Source: Amoebidium appalachense
Lineage: Eukaryota > Protista > Ichthyosporea
DNA: 64,000 nucleotides
Reading direction: 5' to 3'
Assembly: GCA_963693365.1 (NCBI GenBank)
Contig: CAVNZM010000001.1
Span: forward strand, 10,442,161 to 10,506,160
A model generated the notes under the pieces. That model was given only the letters and a program-made list of their open reading frames with translations, had not been told where the DNA came from and ran no database searches. Below, piece by piece: positions 2,979-27,972 of the stretch (the stretch's first letter is position 1; each line of letters opens with the position of its first letter). Both the position numbers and the translations under genes were made by a program.

Positions 2979-3652
2979 TCTATGAAAACTACTCCGGGAC
3001 GTGTGTTGCCTCTAGGGGGACATCCCCTTGGACGAAAGTGAACCTGCAATGGTTGTAAACCACGGCAAGCCCCCAGTCATCAATTTATTGATCCGTGAGG
3101 TCCTTGTGCCCAAAAAACGGGGGAAGTCTTCGCCCCGTGAAAAAACAGCACGTATGTGGGGATCAATGGGGGTTGAGTGTAGGGTGTAGGTGGGTGGCTG
3201 AAAAAGAAAATATAGCTGTAAAGCTGTAGGTGCTAAACACAGAGGATGTGTTGTTGCTTGCTGATCTGCTAAAAACTGTCGTGCTTATATACCTAAGGCT
3301 GCCGAACTGAGCCAATCAAAACCGATCTAGTGTTATGTGAAATCTTATCCTGAGCCAATCAAACTCGGTCTAGTGATCTGTGGAATCTGATGCTTTGATC
3401 GGCTAATAGGTGCCCGTATGCGGGCAGCCGAACGCGAACTGCTAAAACATGAAACGAAGCCTGTTGATATCGGACACCCATCCTACGTGTTTACCCAGAA
3501 AAATATTTATGTCAATAATTTCCACAAATAAAACCTCTATGAAAACTACTCCGGGACGTGTGTTGCCTCTAGGGGGACATCCCCTTGGACGAAAGTGAAC
3601 CTGCAATGGTTGTAAACCACGGCACGAGAGCAGTATGCTTGCTCCAAAGGTT

Positions 3653-4642
3653 TCACTTAAGAATAGAGGCGAATACACGTGTGGTAGTGGCAGCAATGGA
3701 GGCCGGACGAAGTCGGGTATAGATCAGGAAACAGTCGGAGGGCCACCTGCCGAGTTGTTTGATCCGGGAGTCGTCGACCCCGGCCTCAGCCAGTGCTGTG
3801 GGCCCCCCGATGCGGAGGCTGTGTCCGGCAAACCGGGAGGGTGAGAGGCCTGCCCGGGAGAGGAGGGCACGGAAGTCGGCAGAGAAAGCACTCTTGGTGT
3901 AGGGGATGCCACCGAGACTGAAGAGGGGGTCGTTGGGTTGACCGGACGTTGTATCCAGGAACTGCCGGAGGAGATGGGCTGGGGAGAAGTGGGTGAGGGG
4001 CAGGGCAGCTAGAGTGACGTTGACACCTCGGGCCTGTACATCCGTCTTAGAGGTTGGCAGGTGGAGGGTGGCATGGGACAAAGTACCGGTGGGGGTGTAG
4101 GTGAAGGTCACGTCTTTCCGTTTAACGTGACGGGACGGGTCAAAGGAAGTCAGGGTTTTGGAGGTAAATTCCCCCGAACGGAGGAGACCACAGAAACCGA
4201 CGATGAGGGCCGTCCATAGCCGTAGATTAGCCGAGGAGGCCTTGGTGGGGCACTGGCCATGGAGTAGGCTAAGGTGGGAGGGCAGGAGGGGCTCCCTGGT
4301 GGATGATCGGGGTCGGATGTTGTGAGAAAGCTGCCATCTGCCCACCCCTCGGAAGAACCAGGCCAGAGACTTGTCGTGGGGGTAGGGAGCAGGGAGGCCC
4401 ATGTCGAGGTGGAGTCTGGTGATGGCTGAATTGTAGCCGGCCAAGGAAGAGGCCTGTACCCCTCGTTGGGCACACCAGGCGAGAAAAAGCTGCACGGTGT
4501 GGGGGGAGGCCGGGAGGGAGGACCCGGCGGAGGATTGCAGCCGAGATGCCACACAAAAATCGATGAACACTTTTTTTTTTTTTTTTTTTGTACCCTGGAG
4601 TAAAAGGCCCGAGAGTCGAGGTTGAGACTCAGGGCCTGGCAT
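3653..4642 (-). CDS. Tyrosine recombinase (copy 1)
   Basis: Catalytic set LLRSGEF (R), SKTD (K), GHSLRIG (HxxR), LGRW (W), FLIYTR (Y). Confidence 0.93.
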   Translation of the reverse strand: MPGPESQPRLSGLLLQGTKKKKKKVFIDFCVASRLQSSAGSSLPASPHTVQLFLAWCAQRGVQASSLAGYNSAITRLHLDMGLPAPYPHDKSLAWFFRGVGRWQLSHNIRPRSSTREPLLPSHLSLLHGQCPTKASSANLRLWTALIVGFCGLLRSGEFTSKTLTSFDPSRHVKRKDVTFTYTPTGTLSHATLHLPTSKTDVQARGVNVTLAALPLTHFSPAHLLRQFLDTTSGQPNDPLFSLGGIPYTKSAFSADFRALLSRAGLSPSRFAGHSLRIGGPTALAEAGVDDSRIKQLGRWPSDCFLIYTRLRPASIAATTTRVFASILK

Positions 4643-5023
4643 TCCTGCAGGGTAGTGGTGGCACGAAGCAGCTCGGCCGGAGCAAAGTGGGGGGCCAATC
4701 GGCCAGCGTTGCTCCGGAAGGGGAGATCTGGGGGGGGGGGGGGGGGGGGGGGGGGTGAGCCCAGGGGAAGGGATAGGAACTTGTGGACCCAGAAGGGGAA
4801 GGGGCAGGGCTCCGGTTGCAGGTAAGGTCGGAGTCGTCGGGTCCGGGGAAGTTGGTTACGGAGGAGCTGCGCGGCGAATGATTGGGCTGGGTAGGGGGGC
4901 CAGCAGCTCCCAGAGGCGGGAGGTGTCAACGTGGTGCTGGGGCAGCGGGCGGGCCACCGGGGCTGAGCCTCGGGGGAAGGGGTGGTTAGCAAGGGTGGGG
5001 CACCCTCGGGGAGATCCCGGCAT

Positions 5024-5078
<55 letters not shown>

Positions 5079-5459
5079 CAGGGCCCCGGGGGGTTAGAGT
5101 AGGGCAGCTGGGCCCGAGGGAGGGTTTGCAGGGAGGGCAGCGGGGCCCTGTGCAGGGGATGCCCGAGCACGCGCGGGTGTGGGCGTACACAGAGTTAGAA
5201 GAAGGGGAGGGAGCGCTAGGTGAGTGTAAGGGGGGGAGGCTCGTGGGATGGGGGGGGGGAGTAAATTTATGTGCAGTGGCCAGAATAACGTCTTTGTGTA
5301 GGGACATTTATTCTTGGCGCGCGCGGGCGCCGTAGTTGGCCTGCGAAAAATGTTACTCAGCCCTAGTGCCCCGTTTTTCCCGAGCTCCGTGTCCTTGGAC
5401 CCGTGTAACCTAGCTCCTAGCCCCTATGTTCTATCTGTGGGTGTGGGTGTGCGCGTAGA

Positions 5460-6020
5460 CTAGGCATTGTGCTTGCAGTCTTTGCGGGGGTGTGTGCCAG
5501 AGCAGAGCGGGCACACGTGGGAGAAGGGGCAGGGCTGCTTAGCGCAGGACCGACCGTTGTGGAAATTCCTGCAGTGTGTTGCGGGTAGATCCACGGGTCG
5601 GGCCGGTGGTGCCGGGCCGGGTTGCGGGCCGGGTCGGTTGGGGGGTTGTCCCCCGCCGGGCTTGTGGGGGGGCTCGAAACCATCAAGACCACAGCCGGGC
5701 TTGGGGTACATGGGGCAGGCCGCGCTGGGGTGGTCGGGGAAGCCGCAACGCTGACATGCGTCCGGGATGAGCAGAGTGGGTGGCAGGAGGAGATCCTGGT
5801 GGAGTTGGGCGAGCAGGTTGGGACACTCGATCGGAGCCCGACCCTGTTGGTGGGCAACGGTTCGGGCGTATACGTCATAGTTGTGGATCTGGGTCCACGG
5901 GTATCGGGTGCTGAGGCGAGTGATGGCGTTGGTCAGCCTGTGGCGGAGGTCGCTGCGGGTTAGGCGCTTAGGTGCCGCGGTAGGGGCGGCGGCTGAGGCC
6001 TGGCGCTTTTTCGGCGGCAT
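5460..6020 (-). CDS. Short gag-like zinc-finger protein (186 aa)
   Basis: ITRLSTRYPW...YDVYAR block, CCHC knuckle CQRCGFPDHPSAAC and CRNFHNGRSC..CPFSHVCPLCSGTHPRKDC finger, typical of DIRS/Ngaro ORF1 C-termini. Basic N-terminus PPKKR. Confidence 0.82.
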   Translation of the reverse strand: MPPKKRQASAAAPTAAPKRLTRSDLRHRLTNAITRLSTRYPWTQIHNYDVYARTVAHQQGRAPIECPNLLAQLHQDLLLPPTLLIPDACQRCGFPDHPSAACPMYPKPGCGLDGFEPPHKPGGGQPPNRPGPQPGPAPPARPVDLPATHCRNFHNGRSCAKQPCPFSHVCPLCSGTHPRKDCKHNA

Positions 6021-6499
6021 GCTGACCGGCGTAGGGAAAGATAGGGAGAAGAAAAGAAAAAGAAAATATAGCTGTAAAGCTGTAGGTGCTAAACACAGAG
6101 GATGTGTTGTTGCTTGCTGATCTGCTAAAAACTGTCGTGCTTATATACCTAAGGCTGCCGAACTGAGCCAATCAAAACCGATCTAGTGTTATGTGAAATC
6201 TTATCCTGAGCCAATCAAACTCGGTCTAGTGATCTGTGGAATCTGATGCTTTGATCGGCTAATAGGTGCCCGTATGCGGGCAGCCGAACGCGAACTGCTA
6301 AAACATGAAACGAAGCCTGTTGATATCGGACACCCATCCTACGTGTTTACCCAGAAAAATATTTATGTCAATAATTTCCACAAATAAAACCAAAACCACA
6401 TTTTGGTTTAGTAATAATCTTAAGGATGTTACAATGAACAATAAGCAGGAAACCAACGGTTATAATTCTAATCTATTAGGATCCTCAGAGATCACATGC

Positions 6500-7135
6500 G
6501 AGAAGTATTTCATTAATGAAGTATTAAGATATGATCCACATTTATGTAATAAAGAACTTCAAAGAAGCACACATACTTCTAGTTCTACACTGGATCCTTG
6601 GTGAATAACAGGATTTTCGGATGCTGAAGGGTGTTTTTCTGTTATCATTGAAATATTGGGGCCTTCTAAATGAAGAGTTAGAGTATCTTTTGAAATTAAC
6701 TTACATATAATGGACGAAGAAATTTTAAATAAAATTAAAAAGTTTTTTAATGTAGGTAATGTGTATCCAAGAAAGAATAGACGAATATCTGTGTATCGTG
6801 TCACTAATGTTAAATCCCTAGAAACCGTAATAATACCACATTTTATTAAATATCCACTTAAAAGTCAAAAAGCTAGTGATTTTTTATTATGAGTTCAAGT
6901 AATTAAAATTATTAGTAATCATCAACATTTAACTACACAGGGATTTAATTCTATTCTTTCTGTATATGCATCTATTAATAGAGGTATATCTAACAAAGTA
7001 GCTTTACATTACCCTAATATGCAACCGGTTGAGAGACCTAAAGTTTCTTTACCAAAGTGTTTAAACCCTCACTGAGTTTCAGGATTTGTTGCAGGAGATG
7101 GTGGGTTTTCCATGTATGTTAGATCTTTTAAGGGT
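6500..7135 (+). CDS. LAGLIDADG endonuclease of intron cox1-821, N-terminal part (start approximate)
   Basis: WITGFSDAEGCF and WVSGFVAGDGGF motifs; continues in frame at 10521 (RSFKG|YILGEK). Confidence 0.9.
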
Positions 7136-9177
7136 TCTATGAAAACTACTCCGGGACGTGTGTTGCCTCTAGGGGGACATCCCCTTGGACGAAAGTGAAC
7201 CTGCAATGGTTGTAAACCACGGCAAGCCCCCAGTCATCAATTTATTGATCCGTGAGGTCCTTGTGCCCAAAAAACGGGGGAAGTCTTCGCCCCGTGAAAA
7301 AACAGCACGTATGTGGGGATCAATGGGGGTTGAGTGTAGGGTGTAGGTGGGTGGGTGAAAAAGAAAATATAGCTGTAAAGCTGTAGGTGCTAAACACAGA
7401 GGATGTGTTGTTGCTTGCTGATCTGCTAAAAACTGTCGTGCTTATATACCTAAGGCCGCCGAACTGAGCCAATCAAAACCGATCTAGTGTTATGTGAAAT
7501 CTTATCCTGAGCCAATCAAACTCGGTCTAGTGATCTGTGGAATCTGATGCTTTGATCGGCTAATAGGTGCCCGTATGCGGGCAGCCGAACGCGAACTGCT
7601 AAAACATGAAACGAAGCCTGTTGATATCGGACACCCATCCTACGTGTTTACCCAGAAAAATATTTATGTCAATAATTTCCACAAATAAAACCTCTATGAA
7701 AACTACTCCGGGACGTGTGTTGCCTCTAGGGGGACATCCCCTTGGACGAAAGTGAACCTGCAATGGTTGTAAACCACGGCACGAGAGCAGTATGCTTGCT
7801 CCAAAGGTTTCACTTAAGAATAGAGGCGAATACACGTGTGGTAGTGGCAGCAATGGAGGCCGGACGAAGTCGGGTATAGATCAGGAAACAGTCGGAGGAC
7901 CACCTGCCGAGTTGTTTGATCCGGGAGTCGTCGACCCCGGCCTCAGCCAGTGCTGTGGGCCCCCCGATGCGGAGGCTGTGTCCGGCAAACCGGGAGGGTG
8001 AGAGGCCTGCCCGGGAGAGGAGGGCACGGAAGTCGGCAGAGAAAGCACTCTTGGTGTAGGGGATGCCACCGAGACTGAAGAGGGGGTCGTTGGGTTGACC
8101 GGACGTTGTATCCAGGAACTGCCGGAGGAGATGGGCTGGGGAGAAGTGGGTGAGGGGCAGGGCAGCTAGAGTGACGTTGACACCTCGGGCCTGTACATCC
8201 GTCTTAGAGGTTGGCAGGTGGAGGGTGGCATGGGACAAAGTACCGGTGGGGGTGTAGGTGAAGGTCATGTCTTTCCGTTTAACGTGACGGGACGGGTCAA
8301 AGGAAGTCAGGGTTTTGGAGGTAAATTCCCCCGAACGGAGGAGACCACAGAAACCGACGATGAGGGCCGTCCATAGCCGTAGATTAGCCGAGGAGGCCTT
8401 GGTGGGGCACTGGCCATGGAGTAGGCTAAGGTGGGAGGGCAGGAGGGGCTCCCTGGTGGATGATCGGGGTCGGATGTTGTGAGAAAGCTGCCATCTGCCC
8501 ACCCCTCGGAAGAACCAGGCCAGAGACTTGTCGTGGGGGTAGGGAGCAGGGAGGCCCATGTCGAGGTGGAGTCTGGTGATGGCTGAATTGTAGCCGGCCA
8601 AGGAAGAGGCCTGTACCCCTCGTTGGGCACACCAGGCGAGAAAAAGCTGCACGGTGTGGGGGGAGGCCGGGAGGGAGGACCCGGCGGAGGATTGCAGCCG
8701 AGATGCCACACAAAAATCGATGAACACTTTTTTTTTTTTTTTTTTTTTGTACCCTGGAGTAAAAGGCCCGAGAGTCGAGGTTGAGACTCAGGGCCTGGCA
8801 TTCCTGCAGGGTAGTGGTGGCACGAAGCAGCTCGGCCGGAGCAAAGTGGGGGGCCAATCGGCCAGCGTTGCTCCGGAAGGGGAGATCTGGGGGGGGGGGG
8901 GGGGGGGGTGAGCCCAGGGGAAGGGATAGGAACTTGTGGACCCAGAAGGGGAAGGGGCAGGGCTCCGGTTGCAGGTAAGGTCGGAGTCGTCGGGTCCGGG
9001 GAAGTTGGTTACGGAGGAGCTGCGCGGCGAATGATTGGGCTGGGTAGGGGGGCCAGCAGCTCCCAGAGGCGGGAGGTGTCAACGTGGTGCTGGGGCAGCG
9101 GGCGGGCCACCGGGGCTGAGCCTCGGGGGAAGGGGTGGTTAGCAAGGGTGGGGCACCCTCGGGGAGATCCCGGCATC

Positions 9178-9208
<31 letters not shown>

Positions 9209-10520
9209 CAGGGCCCCGGGGGGTTAGAGTAGGGCAGCTGGGCCCGAGGGAGGGTTTGCAGGGAGGGCAGCGGGGCCCTGTGCAGGGGATGCCCGAGCAC
9301 GCGCGGGTGTGGGCGTACACAGAGTTAGAAGAAGGGAGGGAGCGCTAGGTGAGTGTAAGGGGGGGAGGCTCGTGGGATGGGGGGGGGGAGTAAATTTATG
9401 TGCAGTGGCCAGAATAACGTCTTTGTGTAGGGACATTTATTCTTGGCGCGCGCGGGCGCCGTAGTTGGCCTGCGAAAAATGTTACTCAGCCCTAGTGCCC
9501 CGTTTTTCCCGAGCTCCGTGTCCTTGGACCCGTGTAACCTAGCTCCTAGCCCCTATGTTCTATCTGTGGGTGTGGGTGTGCGCGTAGACTAGGCATTGTG
9601 CTTGCAGTCTTTGCGGGGGTGTGTGCCAGAGCAGAGCGGGCACACGTGGGAGAAGGGGCAGGGCTGCTTAGCGCAGGACCGACCGTTGTGGAAATTCCTG
9701 CAGTGTGTTGCGGGTAGATCCACGGGTCGGGCCGGTGGTGCCGGGCCGGGTTGCGGGCCGGGTCGGTTGGGGGGTTGTCCCCCGCCGGGCTTGTGGGGGG
9801 GCTCGAAACCATCAAGACCACAGCCGGGCTTGGGGTACATGGGGCAGGCCGCGCTGGGGTGGTCGGGGGAAGCCGCAACGCTGACATGCGTCCGGGATGA
9901 GCAGAGTGGGTGGCAGGAGGAGATCCTGGTGGAGTTGGGCGAGCAGGTTGGGACACTCGATCGGAGCCCGACCCTGTTGGTGGGCAACGGTTCGGGCGTA
10001 TACGTCATAGTTGTGGATCTGGGTCCACGGGTATCGGGTGCTGAGGCGAGTGATGCGTTGGTCAGCCTGTGGCGGAGGTCGCTGCGGGTTAGGCGCTTAG
10101 GTGCCGCGGTAGGGGCGGCGGCTGAGGCCTGGCGCTTTTTCGGCGGCATGCTGACCGGCGTAGGGAAAGATAGGGAGAAGAAAAGAAAAAGAAAATATAG
10201 CTGTAAAGCTGTAGGTGCTAAACACAGAGGATGTGTTGTTGCTTGCTGATCTGCTAAAAACTGTCGTGCTTATATACCTAAGGCTGCCGAACTGAGCCAA
10301 TCAAAACCGATCTAGTGTTATGTGAAATCTTATCCTGAGCCAATCAAACTCGGTCTAGTGATCTGTGGAATCTGATGCTTTGATCGGCTAATAGGTGCCC
10401 GTATGCGGGCAGCCGAACGCGAACTGCTAAAACATGAAACGAAGCCTGTTGATATCGGACACCCATCCTACGTGTTTACCCAGAAAAATATTTATGTCAA
10501 TAATTTCCACAAATAAAACC
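7136..10520 (-). mobile_element. RT-less YR element, copy 2
   Basis: Near-identical to copies 1 and 3. Removing it restores the LAGLIDADG frame with no TSD. Confidence 0.93.
7810..8727 (-). CDS. Tyrosine recombinase (copy 2)
   Basis: Same R-K-HxxR-W-Y motifs as copy 1. Confidence 0.9.
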   Translation of the reverse strand: MFIDFCVASRLQSSAGSSLPASPHTVQLFLAWCAQRGVQASSLAGYNSAITRLHLDMGLPAPYPHDKSLAWFFRGVGRWQLSHNIRPRSSTREPLLPSHLSLLHGQCPTKASSANLRLWTALIVGFCGLLRSGEFTSKTLTSFDPSRHVKRKDMTFTYTPTGTLSHATLHLPTSKTDVQARGVNVTLAALPLTHFSPAHLLRQFLDTTSGQPNDPLFSLGGIPYTKSAFSADFRALLSRAGLSPSRFAGHSLRIGGPTALAEAGVDDSRIKQLGRWSSDCFLIYTRLRPASIAATTTRVFASILK

Positions 10521-10859
10521 TATATTTTAGGTGAAAAAGTAGATTGCAGATTTCATATAGCTCAGCATAGTAAAGATATTGAATTAATGCATTTATTTAT
10601 AAAATTCTTTGCGTGTGGTGATGTCTATTTAAGATCTAATACACCTAGATGTGATTATGTAGTTCAGGATTTCACATCCTTAATACATAAGATTATTCCA
10701 CATTTTAAAAAATACCCTCTTGTTAACTTGAAACAAGAAGATTTTTTATGTTTCAAACAAGGTTTACATTTAATACAAGATCAGCTGCATCTAACTCCAA
10801 AAGGTCTACAACAAATAAAAGATTTAAACTCAGAGATGAATTTAAACCGATTAAAGTAA
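10521..10859 (+). CDS. LAGLIDADG endonuclease of intron cox1-821, C-terminal part
   Basis: FHIAQHSKD...IIPHFKKYPL...HLTPKGLQQIKDLNSEMNLNR is a typical LAGLIDADG tail. Confidence 0.9.
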   Translation, partial: YILGEKVDCRFHIAQHSKDIELMHLFIKFFACGDVYLRSNTPRCDYVVQDFTSLIHKIIPHFKKYPLVNLKQEDFLCFKQGLHLIQDQLHLTPKGLQQIKDLNSEMNLNRLK

Positions 10860-10875
10860 TTATTACATAAATTTG

Positions 10876-11593
<718 letters not shown>

Positions 11594-11638
11594 AATGATT
11601 ATTGCAGTACCAACTGGTATTAAAATCTTCTCTTGGTT
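11594..11638 (+). CDS. cox1: cox1 exon 12 (MIIAVPTGIKIFSWL)
   Basis: Conserved Cox1 helix VIII. Confidence 0.95.
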
Positions 11639-12664
11639 GTCAAAGTCCTTAAGCAAGACTTATTATGCGACCAAATCTAATAGAAATAAACATAAACAGC
11701 TATTAAAAACTAATAGAAATCCTCATGTTTATGATAATTGTAACGATACAAGATTAGCGATATATGGAACGAATTTAGGATTCAGTTTAGGTTACCCAAA
11801 AATTACAAAATATTTAAGATTAGGAATTTTCTGTGCTCAAGGGTTCTTTCCTAAAATAGAAGTCGTTAATGGTAAATCCTATTTACAAACTCAGTTTGTA
11901 ACCAGAGCATTACCGTGTTTTACATATTTACATACACTCTTTTATCCCAAGGGGATTAAAAAGTTCCAACTATCGTATATAATTATTTAACATGGGAAAC
12001 CTTGGCACATTGAATTGCTTGTGACGGTACTTATAGTAGTGGTGTTATTTTACAAACTGAAAGCTTTTCCTTACAGGATAAAATATTGCTTATTCATATG
12101 TTAGTATTAAGATTGGATTTTGAATGTACGATTCAAGAACAAGGGAATAAAAAAAGTAATATATAAAAAAGCTAAATCTATTCAAAAGAATTTGTATAAC
12201 ATTATTCCACACCTGCACAAATCGATGCATTACAAAGTGTTAGGACCTAAAGCCAGATAGGTCTGAGGTTTAAGTATTTCTATTAGTGTATTTCTATTAG
12301 TGACGCGGCAAACTCGAGAGACGTCCTAACTCTAAGAATAAGAATTAGAAAGGACTATCGTCGAACTAAGTGCTCAGGTTAAAGCCTGGGTTGAATGATT
12401 AAGAAATTGGCATTCAAGTACGATACTAAGAGCTGTTCTTTATCGTATCTAAAAGCGTAGAGGCCAGATGCTGCGAATATTCCTAAGGGATAGTACCTTA
12501 TTGTATCCTATGGAATATGAAGGAATGGTCCGGGGCGTTAGTAATAAATGGTACCCTAAACCAGTACCGTATAAGAGTATATAATGGTAAGTAATTTGCA
12601 TATCCCTACTCTTATAAGCCAATAAGGCCAGCCTTATCTGAAATGATAGAAGGCCCGAACCCTG
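11639..12664 (+). ncRNA. Group I intron (cox1-971) with a frameshifted LAGLIDADG-like ORF remnant
   Basis: Broken ORF (TRALPCFTYLHTLFY, LAHWIACDG) at 11640-12260; intron ends in G at 12664. Confidence 0.75.
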
Positions 12665-12800
12665 AGCGACTTTATTCGGTGGAAGCATTCGTCTTACTTC
12701 AGCTATGGTATTTGGTATCGGATTCTTATTCTTATTCACAGTAGGTGGATTAACTGGTATCGCATTAGCTAATGGTGGATTAAACGTGGCCCTTCACGAT
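12665..12800 (+). CDS. cox1: cox1 exon 13 (ATLFGGSI...[22 protein letters not shown])
   Basis: FTVGGLTG and LHD motifs. Confidence 0.95.
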
Positions 12801-13072
12801 GAAAACGATAAAAATAAGAGAGTATTTAGAACCATTTTGAGTAGGTCTGTTAGAGGGTGATGGGAGTATTGTTGTGAGAAAAAACAGAAAAAGTAAGGTT
12901 TTATTTGTGGAAATTATTGACATAAATATTTTTCTGGGTAAACACGTAGGATGGGTGTCCGATATCAACAGGCTTCGTTTCATGTTTTAGCAGTTCGCGT
13001 TCGGCTGCCCGCATACGGGCACCTATTAGCCGATCAAAGCATCAGATTCCACAGATCACTAGACCGAGTTTG

Positions 13073-13147
13073 ATTGGCTCAGGATAAGATTTCACATAAC
13101 ACTAGATCGGTTTTGATTGGCTCAGTTCGGCAGCCTTAGGTATATAA
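13073..13147 (+). promoter_or_regulatory. Putative Pol II promoter in repeat A: two reverse CCAAT boxes and a TATA box
   Basis: ATTGG at 13073 and 13116 inside a duplicated CACTAGAYCG..TTTGATTGGCTCAG unit; TATATAA at 13141, about 125 bp before the gag ATG (13268). The TATA and proximal box are present in all A copies. Confidence 0.6.
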
Positions 13148-13267
13148 GCACGACAGTTTTTAGCAGATCAGCAAGCAACAACACATCCTCTGTGTTTAGC
13201 ACCTACAGCTTTACAGCTATATTTTCTTTTTCTTTTCTTCTCCCTATCTTTCCCTACGCCGGTCAGC

Positions 13268-13827
13268 ATGCCGCCGAAAAAGCGCCAGGCCTCAGCCGCC
13301 GCCCCTACCGCGGCACCTAAGCGCCTAACCCGCAGCGACCTCCGCCACAGGCTGACCAACGCATCACTCGCCTCAGCACCCGATACCCGTGGACCCAGAT
13401 CCACAACTATGACGTATACGCCCGAACCGTTGCCCACCAACAGGGTCGGGCTCCGATCGAGTGTCCCAACCTGCTCGCCCAACTCCACCAGGATCTCCTC
13501 CTGCCACCCACTCTGCTCATCCCGGACGCATGTCAGCGTTGCGGCTTCCCCGACCACCCCAGCGCGGCCTGCCCCATGTACCCCAAGCCCGGCTGTGGTC
13601 TTGATGGTTTCGAGCCCCCCCACAAGCCCGGCGGGGGACAACCCCCCAACCGACCCGGCCCGCAACCCGGCCCGGCACCACCGGCCCGACCCGTGGATCT
13701 ACCCGCAACACCCTGCAGGAATTTCCACAACGGTCGGTCCTGCGCTAAGCAGCCCTGCCCCTTCTCCCACGTGTGCCCGCTCTGCTCTGGCACACACCCC
13801 CGCAAAGACTGCAAGCACAATGCCTAG
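13268..13827 (+). pseudogene. gag-ZnF of copy 3, 1-nt frameshift relative to copy 1
   Basis: AACGCATC here versus AACGCCATC in copy 1; copy 2 has the same deletion. Confidence 0.75.
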
Positions 13828-17277: not shown

Positions 17278-17808
17278 CATACTTTATTTTTAAAGTACGG
17301 ACCATATCTTTATCTAAGCTTGATAACTATGTCATTTACATAAAAAAATTATTTCATTTATGATGTAAGCGACATCTAATTGAGTTACTACCAGATCTTA
17401 ATTTAACCTTACCACCATAAACATTCTGAATAACGTAAAGACAATCTTCATCTCTTACATCTACGGTAATCTCAAGACTACCGTAACCTTTTTGATAAAT
17501 AAAACCCACCATCTCCATCAATGAGTCCAGCTAATCATTGCTTGAATTTAAAGTTTTTCTTTATCTCCAGTTATATAGTTATCAGTTGATACCGAACGTA
17601 TGGTCTCTGAGATTCCTACTAGCGCACTTTGCGCTTTGGTTATCTGCGGATTGTTGACATCTATTGGAATTTTTACTCCCACGGCTATAGAAAAATAAAC
17701 TTCTGTGATTAGTATTCAATAGATTTTTTAGTTGAACTAAAGTCAAGTTCCCGCATATAGTTCGGTGCGATTCCTTGTACACTAAATACAAAGAAAGGGC
17801 CATGCCTG

Positions 17809-17819
17809 ACCGAAGAATC
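17809..17819 (-). CDS. cox1: cox1 exon 7 (11 nt, WFFG)
   Basis: G|GATTCTTCGGT completes T|GA TTC TTC GGT. Confidence 0.9.
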
Positions 17820-18342
17820 CAATCTTCTAAATCTTAGATTTCATGTCAAACATGTCTCTTTCTAAGATCCCTGTACTATCTCTAGAGCGACATCCTCCCA
17901 TATTTCGGTCTTATGGGTTTCGTTACTCTTTCATTGATAGCCTTGTGTGAGTGTCCTCAAGAAAATCCGACTGTACATTAAGCACCATTTCAGGCACCCA
18001 CAAGTGACCCAGTCTGTAGCGACACCTTAAATTGCCGACGGTCTTTGAGCGAGATACTCATTAACCGTTTTCACTTGCATTGCCAAGAATAGATGGGGTT
18101 AAGTAAACTTTCATATATTCTCCAAGTTAGCGCTGTCACGCTAAGCTTATGCCTCACTCCTATGCTAAGAAAGGAGCATCTTCTTCTCTCTAAGGATTAC
18201 TAAGATACTGGCTATAAGGACTAGAAGAAAGATTTCCATAGAAAGTCTTGTGGAGTATTCTCCTTAAATCTTTAAAACATCTGCTTCCTATTTCTTCTTC
18301 CAATTGCTTGGAAACTTCCTCCTGTTTTCCGTAGGGAGCTTA

Positions 18343-19223
18343 TTATTTAGGATTATTTATTTCTCTGGCTAATACTTTTAAAGAGTCTCTCAACGATAAA
18401 TCAAGATGTTCTTTGTTTAATAGCTTTTCATGCAATGCTTTTCATAATAGATAACTTTTGGCTTTTTGACTACGTAATTGATGTTTGTCAAAATATGGAA
18501 AAACTTTGGTTACATCTTTTAAACCAGATATTCTGTAAGAATAAGTATCAGGATGACCATGCTTAGAGACTGTACCTGCAGAGAATAAGAAATTTAAATG
18601 CTCTAATACATATTTATTCTTACTGTGTTTTTGAGTTACACCATAATAAATAGTAAAGCCTGAAGATTTTTTAATACTCACGCAAAAACAACCTTCACTA
18701 TCTGTAAAGCCACTAATTCAACTATCCTGTAACGTTGGAACTCTTGGTGTTAAAGAAGTCATTATAATTTCAGGATACTTTGAATTACCCTTTTGATTAT
18801 ATCTATTTAATTTATGTATAAACTTGGTAAAACTTTCTATTCTACTTTGAACTACTAAATTCCCATTAAAAAGAAGTCCCATTAAATACAACCCCTTCTT
18901 GTCTTGAACTACAAAACGAGATGCTGTTGCTCCTTGTTTTATAACTTTTCCTATACCTAAATTTTTTTGAATCATATATAGGACGTTTATATCACTAGTC
19001 TGCTGTGTAATAATAAATGAGATGTCTCCTCGGTTTGCCACAGTGAAACATCCATCACCTTCTGTAAACCCTATTAATCAAGTTAAGAATGAGGAATTGG
19101 GTGCTTCTTTACTTAATAGTCGTTTATACTCTTCATTAAATGGAGTAAAATTAAATGAATTTGAAACTTCTTTCTTGTGTGTATCGCCTAGATGATTATC
19201 TAAAGATAAATCTACTCCCTGAG
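18343..19223 (-). CDS. LAGLIDADG endonuclease/maturase of intron cox1-709, in frame with the upstream exon
   Basis: [12 protein letters not shown] and [12 protein letters not shown]; three listed ORFs merge when TGA=W. Confidence 0.9.
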
Positions 19224-19317
19224 AGAAAAGATGTTGGAAAAGAACAGGATCTCCTCCACCAGCTGGATCATAGAATGTTGTGTTAAGGTTTCTATCTGTT
19301 AATAACATTGTAATTCC
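19224..19317 (-). CDS. cox1: cox1 exon 6 ([31 protein letters not shown])
   Basis: Highly conserved Cox1 motif. Confidence 0.97.
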
Positions 19318-19424
19318 CTAATCTTGATTCACGAGAACGAATCCCATGACTATTAAGTCTCAAAAGTTTATATATAAACTTAAGGTGAATACTCATCTGC
19401 TCACACAGATGTTGGGACTATATC

Positions 19425-20474
19425 TTAATCATTTATGCTATAGAAAGAAGATAAATGGTTTCAAGTAAAAGCTTTACGTTTGTTATTCATCCCCGATTTG
19501 ATTCTTATAATAAAATCTTTACTAGTAATATCTTTATGCTCGCCTGTTTTAAAAAGAGCTAACACTTGTAGCCAGTCTAAGTAATCTAAGTATTTACTGC
19601 TGAAAAGAGGATATTGCTGTAAATACTGTTCTAATACAAGATTCCCCGCGAGGCTGGTTGTTCTAATACGGTATTCAGGAAGTTTCTTAGTTTTTCTATT
19701 AGCTATTGAGACCTTAGTCAATAATAGAGCAGCTATAGGCTGAAGAAATTCCAGATGGCTTTCACCGTTAAGTCCAGTCAAGGCCTGAGAAAGCTCAATT
19801 TGACAACCCACACGAATAGTTTTACTATTCTTATTAATAGAAGCTCGAATGGCAAAATGGCCCTCGGCATCTATAAATCCGGATAATCAAGCACTACTAG
19901 TAAAAGAATCAAAGTTTCTTGGTAACGCAATAATGTTAATATCGGGGAATCTATTGTTTAATCATGCTATCAATCGATTTAATGCTGAAACTTTAGGTGT
20001 TTTCATGTTACCGTTTAATAATGCCACCATTAATAATAAACCGTTAAAGTCATTAATAATTAATATGTAAGCTTTTTTCCCTTTTTTCTTTGAGATAGAA
20101 CCACAACCTAATACTTTTTGAATTTGGAAAGCTAAAGGAAGATCTTTAGAATGAAAGCTAATTTGAATTGAGGGATAATTTAATCTTCCTTTTTGGGAAC
20201 AAACGGTTGTGGGTACTACAATGGTACCATCGCCTTCAACTAAACCAGTTAAATACTGAGAGAATAAATTAGAATATTGTTTATGTGAGTTTAGTGAAAA
20301 TGGTATCTCAAAGAATAGGCCATCTACCTTGCGGTGAACCGCGCGAAATAATAATAAGGATCTATAGCTAATGAAGATTGGCGTATAGTCTCTGAGGATC
20401 CTATTTAAGTTCAAACGAAAATAGTTTCCTGCTGATTGTCTCTGAGTATCAGAGAGGTTCCAGCATATAGCCAA
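19425..20474 (-). CDS. LAGLIDADG endonuclease of intron cox1-615 (start approximate)
   Basis: YLTGLVEGDGT and WLSGFIDAEGHF motifs; continuous with TGA=W. Confidence 0.9.
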
Positions 20475-20501
20475 GTTTAAAGCAGGCAGAATTAATGGGT
20501 T

Positions 20502-20623
20502 ACCTGCTAATACTGGTAATGATAATAATAATAAGAATGCTGTAATGAATACTGCTCAAACGAATAATGGTAATTCATGCATTCCCATTTTAGGTGTTCT
20601 CATGTTAATAGTTGTTGTAATGA
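20502..20623 (-). CDS. cox1: cox1 exon 5 (FITTTINMR...LPLFVWAVFITAFLLLLSLPVLAG)
   Basis: Conserved Cox1 sequence. Confidence 0.96.
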
Positions 20624-20864
20624 CATTAAATAGATAGAAATATTATATTCCTACTATTATGGACTATCTCTTCAACATATCAAATACTAGATATGAAGTA
20701 CAACGTATAGTCTCTGAGGATCCTACTAGTGCACAGTAGCACGTTGGTTTCCTGCTGATTGAGCTTAACCAATAGCATTATGACCTTCCGGTATCTATTG
20801 ATACTAAGTTGTTCCAGCATATAGTTATATTTTTATATCAACCCCATTTATATTTTAAATTATG

Positions 20865-22212
<1,348 letters not shown>

Positions 22213-22420
22213 TCATCAAAACATGAAATATGCTTTGTTCCACGTGTAGTCTCTGAGGATCCTACTAATAAATGTTTCATCTACTTTAGTATCCTGCTGG
22301 TTGACCATTGCAATTCGCTATCCTTAAGATTGTTACTCTTACATTATCTAAGAGTACCTAAGGCTTTAGGTGTTTCCAGCATATAGTGGAATTTAAGAAC
22401 TGCCTAACCACTTATAGTAA

Positions 22421-22434
22421 ACAGTTCATCCTGT
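22421..22434 (-). CDS. cox1: cox1 exon 3 (14 nt, TGWTV)
   Basis: G|ACAGGATGAACTGT completes GAG-TGWTV-YPPL. Confidence 0.92.
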
Positions 22435-22902
22435 CCTAATTAGCATCAATGATCCAATTCCACTAAATAACTTCAATCGAATTTAGTACGTTGTGAATTC
22501 ATTGAGTTTTTCAATTCTGTTAGTTGGGTTGTACCCTGTTTCGATCTATACTGGAATCCCTTGTTCAATGCACAAACCTCTGCAAAGCATTGATAATCTA
22601 ATCGTTTAGATGAATATAATACTAACAGTTGAATACTTAATCTTGCTAATCATGGACTATATCTTCATCCTATATCACAGATATACGTGACAGGAGCAAC
22701 ACGTGTAGTCTCTGAGGATCCTACTAATAGATCTTTATCTACTTTGGTTTCCTGCTAATAGTACCTCATGTTTATCATTATTACTCCTACTAGTTATGAA
22801 CTAATCGAAGTAGATAACATTATGCATTCTTCAATGCTGCGGCAGTTTCTAGCATATAGTGTTGTTCGAAGAAAGATTGCTCTTTCGACGGGCACTAATG
22901 GT

Positions 22903-22993
22903 ACCCGCACCTTGTTCTACTAATGCCGATGACACTAATAGAATTAAAGATGGAGGTAATAATCATAAACTAATGTTGTTTAAACGTGGGAAT
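22903..22993 (-). CDS. cox1: cox1 exon 2 ([30 protein letters not shown])
   Basis: FPRLNN motif. Confidence 0.96.
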
Positions 22994-23048
22994 CGATTAA
23001 TCTTCCTATTTTACTAGAAAGTTGGACTATGTCTTCATCCTATCTCAC

Positions 23049-26000
23049 TCTATGAAAACTACTCCGGGACGTGTGTTGCCTCTAGGGGGACATCCCCTTG
23101 GACGAAAGTGAACCTGCAATGGTTGTAAACCACGGCAAGCCCCCAGTCATCAATTTATTGATCCGTGAGGTCCTTGTGCCCAAAAAACGGGGGAAGTCTT
23201 CGCCCCGTGAAAAAACAGCACGCATGTGTGGATCAATGGGGGTGAGTGTGGGTGTAGGTGGGTGGGTGAAAAGAAAATGTATAGCCGTAAGGGCTGTAGG
23301 TGCTCAACACAGAAGATGTGTTTGTAGCTTGCTGATCTGCTGAAAACTGTCTTGCTTATATACCTAAGCCTACCGACCTGAGCCAATTGAAAATCGATCC
23401 AGTGATATGTGAATCTGAATCGAACCAATCAAAATCGGTCTAGCGATATGTGGAATCTGATGTTTTGATTAGCTAATAGGTGCCCGTGTGCGAGCGGCCA
23501 ATCGCGAACTGCTAAAACACGAAACGAAGCCTACATGGTTATGTCAATATCGAACACCCATCCTACGTGTTTACCCAGAAAAATATTTATGTCAATAAAT
23601 TCCACAAATAAAACCTCTATGAAAACTACTCCGGGACGTGTGTTGCCTCTAGGGGGACATCCCCTTGGACGAAAGTGAACCTGCAATGGTTGTAAACCAC
23701 GGCACGAGAGCAGTATGCTTGCTCCAAAGGTTTCACTTAAGGATAGAGGCAAATACACGTTTGTTAGTGGCAGCCATGGGGGCCGGCGAAGTCGAGTATA
23801 GATCAGGGAACAGTCGGAAGATCATCTGCCAAGTTGTTGGATCCTGGAGTCGTCGACCCCGGCCTCGGCCAGGGCTGTGGCCCCCCCAATTCGGAGGCTG
23901 TGGCCGGCAAACCGGGAGGGTGAGAGGCCTGCCCGGGAGAGGAGGGCACGGAAGTCGTCAGAGAAAACACCCTTGGTGTAGGGAATGCCACCGAGACTGA
24001 ACAGGGGGTCGTCAGGTTGACCGGATGTCGTATCCAGGAACTGCCGGAGGAGATGGGCTGGGGAGAAGTGGGTGAGAGGCAGGGCAGCTAGAGTGACGTT
24101 GACACTTAGGGCTGTACATCCATCTTGGAGGTTGGCAGGTGGAGGGTGGCATGGGACAAAGTACTGGTGGGGGTGTAGCTGAAGGTCACGTCCTTCCATT
24201 TCACGTGACGGGACGGGTCGAAGGAAGTCAGGGTCTTGGAGGTAAATTCCCACGAACGGAGGAGACCACAAAAACCGACGATGAGGGCCGTCCAAAGCCG
24301 GCGATTGGCTGAGGAGGCCTGGGTGGGGCACTGGCCATGGAGTAGGCCGAGGTGGGAGGGCAGGAGGGGTTCTCTGGGAGATGATCGGGGTCGGATGTTG
24401 TGAGAAAAGCTGCCATCTGCCCACCCCTTGTAGGAACCAGGCGAGAGACTTGTCGTGGGGGTAGGGAGCCGGAAGTCCCATGTCGAGGTGGAGTCTGGTG
24501 ATAGCCGAATTGTAGCCGGCCAAGGAAGAGGCCTGTACCCCTTGTTGGGCACACCAGGCAAGAAAGAGCTGCACGGTGTGTGGGGAGGCCGGGAGGTAGG
24601 ACCCGGAGGAGGATGGCAGCCGAGATGCCACAAAAATCGATGAACACTTTCTGCACCCGGGAGTAGAAGGCCCGAGAGTCGAGGTTGAGACTCAGGGCCT
24701 GGCACTCCTGCAGGGTAGTGGTGGCTCGAAGCAGCACGGCCGGAGCAAAGTGGGGGGCCAATCTGCCAGCGTTGCTCCGGAAGGGAAGATCGGGGGGGGG
24801 GGGGGAGGGGAGGGGGGGGTTGAGCCCAGGGGAAGGGAGAGGGCATGTGCCGGAAGGCAGCCTGCACGTCTGCCACTGCCATGTAGCAGCCGGGGCCTGC
24901 GTCGAGAATGAGCTGGGGTCCCGGGCTTGTTTTTGTAGTAACGGCGCCGATGGGGGAGGAACGGAGGACCGGAAACTCAGCAAGGAATTGGTCCGGGAAG
25001 AGGGTGGCCGCGCTGGTGGCCGAGGGGGGGCTGGGCCTCCGGGTCTGAGCCTCGGGGGAAGGTGTGGTTAGCAAGGGTGGGGCACCCTCGGGGAGACCCC
25101 GGCAGCCGGGGGGGGGGGGGGGGGGGGGGGGCAGCAGGGCCCCGGGGGGTTTAGAGTAGGGCAGCTGGGCCCGAGAGAGGTTGCAGGCAGGGCAGCGGGG
25201 CCATGTGCAGGGGATGCCCGAGCACGCAGGGATGCGGGCGGACACAGAGTTAGAAGGGGGGGGGAGGGAGTGCTAGGTGAGTGTAAGGGGGGGGGGGGGA
25301 GGCTCGTGGGATGGGTGGGGAGTAAAATTATGTGCAGTGGCCAGAATAACGTCTTTTGTGTAGGGACATGTATTCTGTGGCGCGCGCGGGCGCCGTAGGT
25401 GGCCTGCAAAAAAATTTGTACTCAGCCCTAGTGGCCCGTGCTCCCGAGCTCCGTGTCCCTGTACCCGTGTATCCTAGCTCCTAGCCCCTATGTTCTATCT
25501 TGTGTGTGCGGGCAGCTGGGCCCGAGGGAGGTTGCAGGCAGAACAGCGGGGCCATGTGCAGGGGATGCCCGAGCACGCGGGGATGCGGGCGGACACAGAG
25601 TTAGAAGGGGGGGGGGGGGGGGGGGGGGGGGAGGGAGTGCTAGGTGAGTGTAAGGGGGGGGGAGGCTCGTGGGATGGGTGGGGAGTAAAATTATGTGCAG
25701 TGGCCAGAATAACGTCTTTGTGTAGGGACATGTATTCTGTGGCGCGCGCGGGCGCCGTAGGTGGCCTGCAAAAATTTGTACTCAGCCCTAGTGGCCCGTG
25801 CTCCCGAGCTCCGTGTCCCTGTACCCGTGTATCCTAGCACCTAGCCCCTATGTTCTATCTGTGTGTGCGGGCAGCTGGGCCCGAGGGAGGTTGCAGGCAG
25901 AACAGCGGGGCCATGTGCAGGGGATGCCCGAGCACGCGGGGATGCGGGTGGACACAGAGTTAGAAGGGGGGGGGGGGGGGGGGGGGGGGGGGGCTAGGTG

Positions 26001-27972
26001 AGTGTAAGGGGGGGGGCTCGTGGGATGGGTGGGGAGTAAAATTATGTGCAGTGGCCAGAATAACGTCTTTGTGTAGGGACATGTATTCTGTGGCGCGCGC
26101 GGGCGCCGTAGGTGGCTTGCGAAAATTTGTACTTAGCCCTAGTGACCCGAGCTCCCGAGCTCCGTGTCCCTGTACCCGTGTATCCTAGCTCCTAGCCCCT
26201 ATGTTCTATCTGTGTGTGTGGGTGTGCGCGTAGACTAGGCATTAGGCTTGCAGTCTTTGCGGGGGTGTGTGCCAGAGCAGAGCGGGCACACGTGGGAGAG
26301 GGGGCAGGGCTGCTTAGCGCAGGACCGACCTTAAATGTGGAAATTCATGTAGTGCGTGGCGGGTAGCTCCACCGATCGGGCCGGTGTTGCCAGGCCGGGG
26401 TGCGGGTCGGGGCGGTTGGGGGTTTGTCCCCCGCCGGGCTTGTGGGGCGGTGTGAAGCCATCAAGTCTTAGACCACAGCCGGGCTTGGGGTACTACATGG
26501 GACAGGCCTGAGGGGGGGCTTCAGGGGTAGAGGGGAGAGTGGCTTGGAGGGTCCGTGGTGGTGGGGGCCGCCGGAGGCGCGTCAGTGCCCGCGGGAGCGT
26601 TGGGCAGCTGGTTGCGGAGGTCGCGTAATTTGAAATTCGTTTGGAGGGGCGTCGAGCCTGAGGGTTCTTGCTGCTCGGGGGTTACTGGGAAAGCCGGAAC
26701 AGGGAGGGGAGGAGGGGCTTTGACGGGATTGGTTTTGGGATCAGGCACGACGGAGGCAGGGTCAAAGGCAGGTAAGTCCGGACGGAGAAGGTTAACTGGG
26801 TCGGGCCAGGGGCTTTGGAAACGGGGGCGGGCAGCACGGTAGGCTGGCTGGGCAGAAACGTGGATGGGCAGGCAGCACGGTAGGCTGGCTGGGCAGAAAC
26901 GTGGATGGGAACGACCGGACCTGGCAGCATGTGTAGCTGGCCGGGGTCGGGTGGCAACAGGGGGGGAACAGCTGCAGGGGAACTGGGGCCGTGCAGGGTT
27001 TGGGGTAGCTGAGATCTCGACGAGGCTGGCCTTGTGATCTGAGGAAAAAAAAAAATGCTGCTGGAATGCGGGGCAGACCAATGGAATGTGAGGTATCCAT
27101 CGACAGTGAAGTCATGGTGGGGGGAGACATGGCGGGAAACAGGGTGGGAAAACAGGGAAGGAGGCGGGTTGAACACGGTAAGCTGTTCTGGCAGGGACTT
27201 GGGGTCAGTACTCCTGAACAGTAGGAAAGCACAAGGTGCTTTGACTGGGTTTAACATAAGCGACGCGATTGGAGTACCGTATTTGAATACTCAGAAGGGC
27301 AATCGGGCAAGGACTATGAGCGAGGATAGTCAATGCGGATCGAAGCGGGGTGTGAAATTCTAGGCCATCGGGATTGAAAACGGGGTTTGAAATTAGACGA
27401 GTGGTAGGGACTTAGATCACAGCGGCGCGGCGCGTGAGGGACCATGTCAGGAAATCTTCTTGAAGTGTCGAGGAACTTGTAGGGCGACTAGCCCTAACCG
27501 GGACGGAACTGGCAGGAGTGCAAGCCTAACTTGCGAGGAGGACACGAGGGCAAGCTGAACTTGCAAGGATGGCACGATTGTCAAGGTGTGACAGAAGCTC
27601 GTGTCAAGAGTTGTCACGGAGTGTGAAAAGAAAATGTATAGCCGTAAGGGCTGTAGGTGCTCAACACAGAAGATGTGTTTGTAGCTTGCTGATCTGCTGA
27701 AAACTGTCTTGCTTATATACCTAAGCCTACCGACCTGAGCCAATTGAAAATCGATCCAGTGATATGTGAATCTGAATCGAACCAATCAAAATCGGTCTAG
27801 CGATATGTGGAATCTGATGTTTTGATTAGCTAATAGGTGCCCGTGTGCGAGCGGCCAATCGCGAACTGCTAAAACACGAAACGAAGCCTACATGGTTATG
27901 TCAATATCGAACACCCATCCTACGTGTTTACCCAGAAAAATATTTATGTCAATAAATTCCACAAATAAAACC
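23049..27972 (-). mobile_element. YR element copy 4, divergent subfamily with frameshifted YR, RT remnants and an internal triplication
   Basis: Same A/B/C termini. YR is broken (23730-24720) and RT fragments lie at 24841-24985. Confidence 0.92.
25159..26220. repeat. Three tandem copies of a ~355-bp internal segment of copy 4
   Basis: GGGCAGCTGGGCCCGAG recurs at 25159, 25510 and 25869; the segment is single-copy in elements 1-3. Confidence 0.9.

What the first reader, a model, noticed from the sequence alone, without database searches (positions are those of the whole stretch)
2979..27972. Main candidate system: recently active RT-less split-direct-repeat element carrying only a mini-gag zinc finger and a tyrosine recombinase
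Seen: three ~3.4-kb near-identical copies with A1-gag-YR-B1-A2-C-B2, a complete YR catalytic set and no RT/RNase H. B1|A2 reproduces the end-to-end junction CATAGA|GGTTTT. Established: Ngaro/PAT retrotransposons have split direct repeats, form a circular intermediate and integrate by YR, but encode RT. Inference: this is either a semi-autonomous retroelement that borrows RT but supplies its own integrase, or a lineage moving toward DNA-only circle transposition, since B1xB2 or A1xA2 recombination releases circles that already hold the junction.
Basis: partly seen in the sequence, partly recalled or inferred. Interest (0 to 1): 0.85.

Follow-up and report, generated by a model that had tools for sequence, protein, structure and literature searches.

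The report
Internally deleted Ngaro retrotransposon copies
These are young, internally deleted copies of an abundant Ngaro-type retrotransposon whose longer, reverse-transcriptase-bearing relatives are present in DNA runs that hold the same element, so they most likely move as ordinary passengers on those relatives' enzymes rather than as a new DNA-only element.

Summary
The anatomy is real. Three 3.39-3.41 kb copies (5 substitution columns among them) have A1-gag-YR-B1-A2-C-B2, identical repeat pairs, a Cre-like recombinase with all catalytic residues, and no target duplication. But 'RT-less' means 'RT deleted'. A fourth copy keeps RT motif A, and the three keep the start and the RNase H tail of pol. 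In independent DNA runs a 1,627-nt contig bridges these remnants with canonical RT sequence, at about the depth of the recombinase. The 'mini-gag' is also a deletion product. Selection on the recombinase in the deleted lineage is unresolved: it carries a helix proline (0 of 99 relatives) and a poly-A expansion, and no copy has both gag and YR frames intact as assembled, yet 4 of 7 polarised sites are silent. Copy 4 appears to have moved with a dead YR. Recombination circles cannot rebuild the full repeat layout. Verdict: non-autonomous Ngaro derivative; semi-autonomy about 15%, DNA-only about 3%. Side finds: the copies sit in a 27-kb mitochondrial insert that itself splits a solo repeat, and copies 1 and 3 bound an inversion.

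The parts
2979..6391 (-). Copy 1: A1 6056-6391, shortened gag 5460-6020 (186 aa, frame intact), pol remnants, YR (frame broken at a 19-nt A run), B1 3536-3624, A2 3200-3535, C 3068-3199, B2 2979-3067
7136..10520 (-). Copy 2: same layout; gag has a -1/+1 pair of shifts, YR frame broken at a 21-nt A run; inserted without target duplication in a LAGLIDADG intron ORF
12897..16288 (+). Copy 3: same layout; gag frameshifted, YR frame open
12897..13232 (+). Repeat A1 of copy 3 (336 bp) with a TATA box at 13141; promoter role inferred
13268..13827 (+). Shortened gag: 31 N-terminal codons joined at 13361|13362 to the 3' half with the C-terminal Cys/His finger
   Evidence: gag profile of 17 relatives hits positions 312-358 of 371, 35.8 bits, best of 500 shuffles 2.7; loose ends and longer contigs at 13362
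13978..14409 (+). 5' remnant of pol; ends at the main deletion junction near 14409
   Evidence: X2 loose end behind 14409 and X16 joint 14371-14409; loose end at 25033 of copy 4 reads into this segment
14410..14512 (+). Likely RNase H tail of pol
   Evidence: weak match to pol profile 531-560
14541..15614 (+). Tyrosine recombinase, catalytic set complete; four extra lysines from a 17-nt A run in helix 37-60; proline at residue 309 (15465) in helix 301-314
15643..16288 (+). B1 15643-15731, A2 15732-16067, C 16068-16199 with AATAAA at 16178, B2 16200-16288
23049..27972 (-). Copy 4: a different, independently deleted derivative; A1=A2 (350/350), B1=B2 (89/89); YR with one stop, four frame-changing indels and G185W; about 360-bp triplication at 25159-26222
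24841..25004 (-). RT remnants of copy 4 (24938-25004 and 24841-24917, motif A)
924..1319 (+). Left part of a solo A-C-B (positions 1-376 of 557)
28582..28749 (+). Right part of the same solo A-C-B (positions 396-557)
60899..61275 (-). Solo A-C-B with an internal deletion in A
1320..28581 (.). Nuclear copy of a mitochondrial cox1 region with intron endonuclease ORFs; host DNA of all four full copies
   Evidence: 23 differences in 530 bp and 33 in about 900 bp from mitochondrial contigs in reads

Best explanation
Copies 1-3 are a recently inserted, internally deleted subfamily of an abundant Ngaro-type retrotransposon, likely copied through RNA by the reverse transcriptase of full-length relatives and probably integrated mainly by those relatives' recombinase. 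Shown: the repeat layout, the deletion junctions in gag and pol, the presence of RT-bearing forms in DNA runs, and precise insertion without target duplication. Inferred from the DIRS model: transcription starts after the TATA box in A1 and ends after the AATAAA in C, so the RNA lacks most of A1 and B2. Helper Gag and RT/RNase H package and copy it. The internal B1|A2 block is the template that restores both ends and the CATAGA|GGTTTT joint. YR then recombines that joint with the target. The retained gag and YR are likely leftovers, because two deletions (about 1.4 kb of pol, at least about 0.5 kb of gag) happened to spare them and the copies are too young to have decayed.
For: One 1,627-nt contig in run X16 matches three pieces of copy 4's pol remnant in order, with 234 and 122 other letters between them, and runs on for more than 1,000 nt. 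Loose ends in X1, X2 and X18 at the same places read as canonical RT continuation. A contig of the same depth (12.3) joins 14371 to 14409 in copy 3, which I take to be the same record. Single-contig depths: X16 RT 12.3 against YR 12.8-18.7 and mitochondrial 7.3; X18 RT 14-26 against YR 27.6. Summed depth over RT motif A is 36,763 (X1) and 250,958 (X2), against 52,324 and 72,786 over YR and about 2,600 over copy 4's joints. Copies 1-3 and copy 4 lost different parts of pol, so RT loss happened at least twice. 63 of 67 related loci with at least 1.8 kb upstream carry at least 400 of 585 pol profile columns. 6 of 12 loci checked show the same A1...B1A2-spacer-B2 layout. YR oddities of copies 1-3: Pro309 in 0 of 31 and 0 of 68 relatives and in 7.5%, 1.2% and 0% of depth in X1, X2 and X16; an A run of 12 or more in 0 of 68 relatives. 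Copy 4 has 6 YR lesions yet 0 differences in 439 paired repeat bases (P about 0.007), and its deletion joints are on error-free contigs of depth 1,053 and 328 in X2. DIRS-1 RT acts in trans on a truncated element (PMC7192593, passages).
Against: No intact helper copy was seen: only contig coordinates and 30-letter loose ends are visible, and no genome is held. YR dN/dS between copies 3 and 4 is 0.20, though that path runs mostly through RT-bearing ancestors. Of 7 polarised YR sites listed, 4 are silent; with the 2 within-trio changes, 5 of 9 are replacements, which fits neutrality (P 0.26) and constraint (P 0.29) equally (only 40 of 241 variant rows were shown). Copy 1 has an ATG-started frame running from the pol start into YR up to the A run, and homopolymer lengths in an assembly are unreliable. 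If copy 4's four indels are assembly errors, its test drops to P 0.19. Run X17 (RNA is only a guess) has a 706-bp contig 1 letter from copy 3's YR. In PMC7192593 the truncated DIRS-1 was reverse transcribed in trans but did not complete retrotransposition.
Confidence: 0.76

Rival explanations
1. Semi-autonomous element: RT and probably Gag are borrowed, but the deleted subfamily expresses its own YR, possibly as a pol-start/YR fusion, and this helps its integration in cis.
For: Catalytic set complete and model confident (pLDDT 87). Frame open in copy 3; ATG frame into YR in copy 1; the second C run is 26, 20 and 26 nt, the same modulo 3, keeping the pol tail in frame with YR. 4 of 7 polarised sites are silent. 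30 of 68 full-length relatives also lack a Met before the first YR helix, so a missing ATG is not diagnostic. Near-identical contig in a possibly RNA run.
Against: Helix proline, poly-lysine insert and A runs of 19, 21 and 17 nt that break the frame in 2 of 3 copies as assembled. All 3 coding substitutions within the trio are replacements. Copy 4 appears mobile with a dead YR. A stop follows the pol junction directly in the pol frame.
Confidence: 0.16
2. DNA-only circle transposon in the making: circles released by repeat recombination or by YR excision reintegrate without RNA.
For: Solo A-C-B elements exist (924-1319 plus 28582-28749; 60899-61275) and could be reintegrated B1xB2 circles. The repeats or bodies recombine, judged by the inversion between copies 1 and 3. 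Cryptons show that YR-only DNA transposons exist (PMC3212892, passages).
Against: An A1xA2 circle would insert as A-gag-YR-B and a B1xB2 circle as A-C-B. All 4 full copies keep the internal B1-A2-C. Solo A-C-B is also what A1xA2 recombination leaves behind in the chromosome, as reported for Cafeteria Ngaros (PMC8547959, passages). TATA in A and AATAAA in C are conserved in all four copies. Cryptons lack long direct repeats. RT-bearing partners are abundant.
Confidence: 0.03
3. The three copies are not separate transposition events but an assembly artefact or local duplication.
For: They lie within 13.3 kb, and no listed contig bridges an element-flank junction. The flanks of copies 1 and 3 are swapped relative to the mitochondrial order, which a mis-join could cause.
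Against: The three target sites are different places in one mitochondrial gene, and each rejoins to an open intron frame with no duplicated flank. The copies differ at 5 substitution columns. The subfamily's Pro allele is present in two studies' runs. A mis-join could explain the inversion but not the insertions.
Confidence: 0.05

Closest known systems
Ngaro retrotransposons (DIRS order), e.g. Cafeteria burkhardae Ngaros (PMC8547959, passages) and Xenopus DIRS-53_XT (PMC9210276, passages)
   Same: A1-[gag, pol, YR]-B1A2B2 with identical repeat pairs, YR after pol, internal repeats downstream of YR, solo AB products, and mobile internal-deletion variants (Cafeteria type 2b lacks about 2 kb covering ORF1).
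   Different: Here RT/RNase H and part of gag are deleted and YR is kept; in Cafeteria the described deletion removes ORF1 and keeps RT. A 132-bp spacer C lies between A2 and B2.
Non-autonomous YR retroelements: SIRE of Trypanosoma cruzi VIPER (PMC6681497, passages) and TOC1 of Chlamydomonas (recalled, not read; also named in earlier scan notes)
   Same: Depend on an autonomous relative and keep the split repeats needed in cis; SIRE corresponds to A2-B2, like the solo A-C-B here.
   Different: Those are non-coding or nearly so; these copies still carry about 1.6 kb of recognisable gag and YR sequence.
PAT-like elements (PMC4157794, passages)
   Same: Split direct repeats; a Gag zinc finger in Pat1.
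   Different: PAT elements encode a methyltransferase domain. The partner's pol interval here is about 1.6 kb (about 540 codons), like the 576-662-aa MT-less pols of the six related loci scanned. The paper warns that structure alone misclassifies.
Crypton DNA transposons (PMC3212892, passages)
   Same: YR as the only near-complete enzyme; no target duplication of the DDE type.
   Different: Cryptons have no long direct repeats, no gag and no RT remnants; all three are present here.

Membership tests
Ngaro retrotransposon family (as a derivative) | Split direct repeats A1...B1A2B2, identical pairs, internal block downstream of YR | tested here: met
Ngaro retrotransposon family (as a derivative) | Tyrosine recombinase ORF of the YR-retrotransposon type | tested here: met
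   PF00589; Cre fold; nearest loci are gag-pol-YR elements
Ngaro retrotransposon family (as a derivative) | gag-like ORF1 upstream of pol | tested here: met
   C-terminal finger matches relatives' ORF1 profile; shortened by deletion
Autonomous Ngaro element | Intact RT and RNase H in the copy | tested here: not met
   only remnants in all 4 copies; so these are non-autonomous members, not autonomous ones
Ngaro retrotransposon family (as a derivative) | Derivation from an RT/RNase H-bearing element | tested here: met
   1,627-nt contig and loose ends bridging the remnants; RNase H part itself seen only as a weak tail match
Ngaro versus PAT | No methyltransferase domain after RNase H | tested here: inconclusive
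   pol interval length and 6 of 6 scanned relatives without an MT hit; the partner's own pol sequence could not be read
Ngaro versus PAT | RT phylogeny grouping with reference Ngaro sequences | not testable with these tools
YR retrotransposons | Insertion without target-site duplication | tested here: met
   empty sites rejoin to open intron frames for copy 2 and, crosswise, copies 1 and 3
YR retrotransposons | RNA intermediate and circular or linear cDNA intermediate | not testable with these tools
   only assembled contigs were available
Crypton | No long terminal or internal direct repeats; short 4-6-bp direct repeats only | tested here: not met
   336-bp and 89-bp repeats
Crypton | No gag or RT sequence | tested here: not met

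The most novel reading that the evidence does not exclude
The copy 1-3 subfamily is a semi-autonomous Ngaro derivative: after losing RT it regained a continuous pol-start/YR reading frame by homopolymer slippage, makes its own recombinase, and borrows only RT and Gag. It would be a living first step from a YR retrotransposon towards a recombinase-only element, and its A1xA2 circles would carry their own integrase.
Probability: 0.15. Interest if true: 0.6.

Novelty: new member of a known kind. Interest (0 to 1): 0.25.

Why it matters
As the evidence stands it is a clean, young example of a known thing: internally deleted copies of a YR retrotransposon amplified alongside an abundant full-length family. 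It gives exact ends, a precise empty-site record (the targets are mitochondrial-derived ORFs whose frames can be rejoined) and two independent RT losses, useful for defining the cis-acting minimum of Ngaro elements. If the own-integrase reading held, it would bear on how YR retrotransposons and Crypton-like DNA transposons interconvert. My five literature searches (open-access library only) listed no paper describing an RT-less, YR-retaining Ngaro subfamily under selection, but I read only search listings and passages of seven papers, and the main reviews by Poulter and colleagues were not among them.

Tried and rejected
No whole genome is held, so family counts with and without RT and a subfamily-wide dN/dS were not possible. 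Searching the 66-aa RT remnant found nothing among longer proteins (0 of 40 candidates), and the full HMMER scan returned 2 unrelated repeat proteins; the remnant was identified instead by a profile from related loci and by reads. The YR search found no near-identical protein; the best hit was 53% (P0003). A hairpin at the B|A joint, suggested by an earlier scan note, was not found: z 0.43 to 1.62 for 6 of 6 folds, and no inverted pair centred on the joint. No shared trinucleotide core at the targets: six sites read AA|AG, TT|AG, TA|AC, TA|GT, TT|TG, AA|GC (with flanks re-paired as); only A/T at the two left positions is common. No RNA holder was listed; X17 is only guessed to be RNA and is not used as evidence of expression. 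Summed contig depth is no copy number, so none is given. Absence of an ATG before YR was rejected as an argument (30 of 68 relatives lack one). The 8-lesion calculation used an unchecked count and is replaced. The host lineage was not resolved: an intron endonuclease had 45-63% identity hits, the two with an organism name being basidiomycetes, and such genes move between fungi. Earlier-finding look-ups by place and by sequence were blank.
Full report
Observation. Self-comparison finds three copies at 2979-6391 (-), 7136-10520 (-) and 12897-16288 (+), 98.9-99.4% alike, and a fourth at 23049-27972 (-), 85-91% alike in shared parts. Each begins GGTTTT and ends CATAGA, and each holds that end-to-end joint internally. 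In copies 1-3, A is 336 bp, B 89 bp and A2-C-B2 557 bp; A1/A2 differ at 0, 1 and 0 sites and B1/B2 at none. The trio differs at 5 substitution columns and at homopolymer or 1-bp indels. The YR hits PF00589, has R-K-H-R-W-Y aligned with 31 homologues, and its model (pLDDT 87) matches Cre best (E 6e-11).

Setting. All four copies lie in an AT-rich stretch, about 1320-28581, that is a nuclear copy of a mitochondrial cox1 region with LAGLIDADG and GIY-YIG intron ORFs. It differs from mitochondrial contigs in reads by about 4% (23 of 530 and 33 of about 900 letters), so the insertions are much younger than it. Removing copy 2 restores an open LAGLIDADG frame with no duplicated bases. For copies 1 and 3 the frames rejoin only crosswise: copy 3's left flank with copy 1's right flank, and the reverse. 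The segment 6392-12896 is therefore inverted between two oppositely oriented copies, by recombination or by mis-assembly (a loose end at 16289 in X1 shows the mitochondrial order). The mitochondrial insert itself sits inside a solo A-C-B: 924-1319 covers positions 1-376 and 28582-28749 positions 396-557 of the 557-bp unit. The rest of the window has LINE and copia sequence. The host was not identified; the intron content looks fungal.

RT was deleted, not absent by design. Translation of copy 4 shows RT-like motifs. A profile built from 27 pol ORFs of related loci (six checked, all PF00078) places 24 residues of copy 4 on RT motif A at 11.6 bits; the best of 900 shuffles scored -1.7. Copies 1-3 give a weak match to the RNase H tail at the expected position (0.3 bits, best shuffle -0.9). 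Public runs settle it. Twenty listed runs in 6 studies hold the element or part of it. In X16 one 1,627-nt contig matches 25083-25033, 25004-24938 and 24917-24841 in order, with 234 and 122 other letters between, and continues for more than 1,000 nt. Loose ends at these places in X1, X2, X16 and X18 read as the usual continuation of the RT motifs (the motif pattern is my recall, consistent with the profile). The loose end at 25033 reads into the segment that copies 1-3 keep and copy 4 lost, so the two types are different deletions of one design. In one search a contig of the same depth, 12.3, joins 14371 to 14409 of copy 3, and its cover fits both sides. I infer it is the same record, which makes the pol deletion in copies 1-3 about 1.4 kb. 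Gag is cut too: contigs in X16 (1,298 nt, 670 matching) and X17 (668 nt, 243 matching) stop matching at 13362 and run on, and X2 has 10 loose ends there. Relatives' ORF1 frames are 300-514 codons against 186 here, and the finger matches their C-terminus. The full element is thus about 5.3 kb or more (inference).

The partner is abundant. In the two low-depth runs, where variants collapse, RT contigs have depth 12.3 (X16) and 14-26 (X18), against 12.8-18.7 and 27.6 for YR contigs and 7.3 for mitochondrial DNA in X16. In X1 and X2 summed depth over RT motif A is 36,763 and 250,958, over YR 52,324 and 72,786, and over copy 4's joints about 2,600. The tool warns that summed depth is no copy number; I use it only to say that RT-bearing forms are not rare. 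Whether any such copy is fully intact I could not see. Elsewhere, 63 of 67 related loci with at least 1.8 kb upstream carry most of pol, and 6 of 12 checked show the same repeat layout with a spacer.

Is the kept YR working? Against: copies 1-3 share a proline just after the H-x-x-R motif, inside predicted helix 301-314, found in 0 of 31 and 0 of 68 relatives and in 7.5%, 1.2% and 0% of depth in X1, X2 and X16. They carry an A run of 19, 21 or 17 nt inside helix 37-60, in frame only in copy 3; 0 of 68 relatives have such a run, and 61 of 68 have the shorter spacing. Long A runs stall eukaryotic ribosomes (recalled). No copy has both frames intact as assembled. All three coding substitutions within the trio are replacements. 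Copy 4 has a stop, four frame-changing indels and G185W in YR but no difference in 439 paired repeat bases; if those six lesions arose after insertion that has P about 0.007, or 0.19 if only the two substitutions are real. Its joints lie on error-free contigs of depth 1,053 and 328 in X2, which suggests an amplified lineage. For: dN/dS between copies 3 and 4 is 0.20 (49 silent, 30 replacement), but that path runs mostly through RT-bearing ancestors. Of 7 polarised YR sites, 4 are silent; 5 replacements in 9 fits neutrality (P 0.26) and constraint (P 0.29) alike, and only 40 of 241 variant rows were shown. Copy 1 has an ATG frame from the pol start into YR up to the A run, and homopolymer lengths may be wrong. 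X17, only guessed to be RNA, has a 706-bp contig one letter from copy 3's YR. The question stays open at about 15%.

Mechanism. A TATA box in A and an AATAAA in C just before B2 are present in all four copies. An RNA between them would lack most of A1 and B2, and the internal B1|A2 block is the only template that can restore both. This is the logic of the DIRS-1 model, where the internal region is required and RT acts in trans on a truncated element, although that construct did not complete retrotransposition (PMC7192593, passages). The steps are inferred by analogy; no RNA, cDNA or circle was observed. The DNA-only route fails on geometry: an A1xA2 circle would integrate as A-gag-YR-B and a B1xB2 circle as A-C-B, while all four full copies keep B1-A2-C. 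The solo A-C-B elements are compatible with reintegrated small circles but are also the chromosomal product of A1xA2 recombination, as described for Cafeteria (PMC8547959, passages). The joint does not fold better than shuffles.

Comparison. The layout and gene order are those of Ngaro (PMC8547959, PMC9210276, PMC4157794, PMC3783388, PMC13465315; passages). Truncated copies are the majority of fungal YR elements (PMC3783388). Mobile deletion variants are known in Cafeteria, and SIRE is a non-autonomous VIPER derivative (PMC6681497, passages). PMC12477816 (passages) added only family counts. Crypton membership fails on repeats, gag and RT remnants (PMC3212892, passages). Ngaro against PAT rests on pol length and on relatives lacking MT, not on an RT tree. 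No supplements were read. Verdict: a new non-autonomous member of a known kind, interest 0.25.

Noticed in passing
window 924-1319 and 28582-28749: A 27-kb mitochondrial cox1 insert lies inside a solo A-C-B of this family, with about 19 bp of C lost at the break.
   Followed up: yes
window 6392-12896: Segment inverted relative to the mitochondrial gene order, bounded by the oppositely oriented copies 1 and 3; real ectopic recombination or mis-assembly.
   Followed up: partly
window 1320-28581: All 4 full copies lie in the AT-rich mitochondrial insert, 43% of the window, none in the rest. This recalls Cafeteria Ngaros favouring AT-rich virophage inserts (PMC8547959), but local hopping or tolerance of insertions explains it as well.
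   Followed up: no
window 25159-26222: About 360-bp segment between gag and the pol start is triplicated in copy 4.
   Followed up: no
window 26510-27620: Copy 4's 1.1 kb after A1 does not align well with copies 1-3; probably the gag 5' part of another subfamily.
   Followed up: no
window 14209-14245, 14513-14539, 14676-14696: Homopolymer runs in the element vary strongly between near-identical copies (C 28-51, C 20-26, A 17-21), and long C runs are common across the window.
   Followed up: partly
window 29101-30900 (-): LINE-type reverse transcriptase ORF, 599 aa, PF00078; unrelated to the Ngaro pol.
   Followed up: no
window 39081-41059 (-), 52796-57204 (+), 32083-33276 (-): Copia-type sequence: integrase and gag-pre-integrase hits at 53524-55341, a weak gag hit at 32083-33276; 39410-40886 is 67% like 55657-57146.
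   Followed up: no
window 33171-33639 and 37906-38373: 470-bp direct repeat pair, 91% alike, 4.7 kb apart; possibly LTRs.
   Followed up: no
window 61820-63532: Tandem block with a 411-bp unit repeated exactly at 61820-62230 and 63122-63532 and a related middle copy; possibly a tandem miniature LTR element.
   Followed up: no
window 45679-47262 (+): 527-codon frame with a weak C2H2 zinc-finger hit; possibly a host gene exon.
   Followed up: no
P0003: Closest YR, 53% identical over 99%, on a 4.3-kb contig that could not be fetched; all others were at most about 36% over long stretches.
   Followed up: partly
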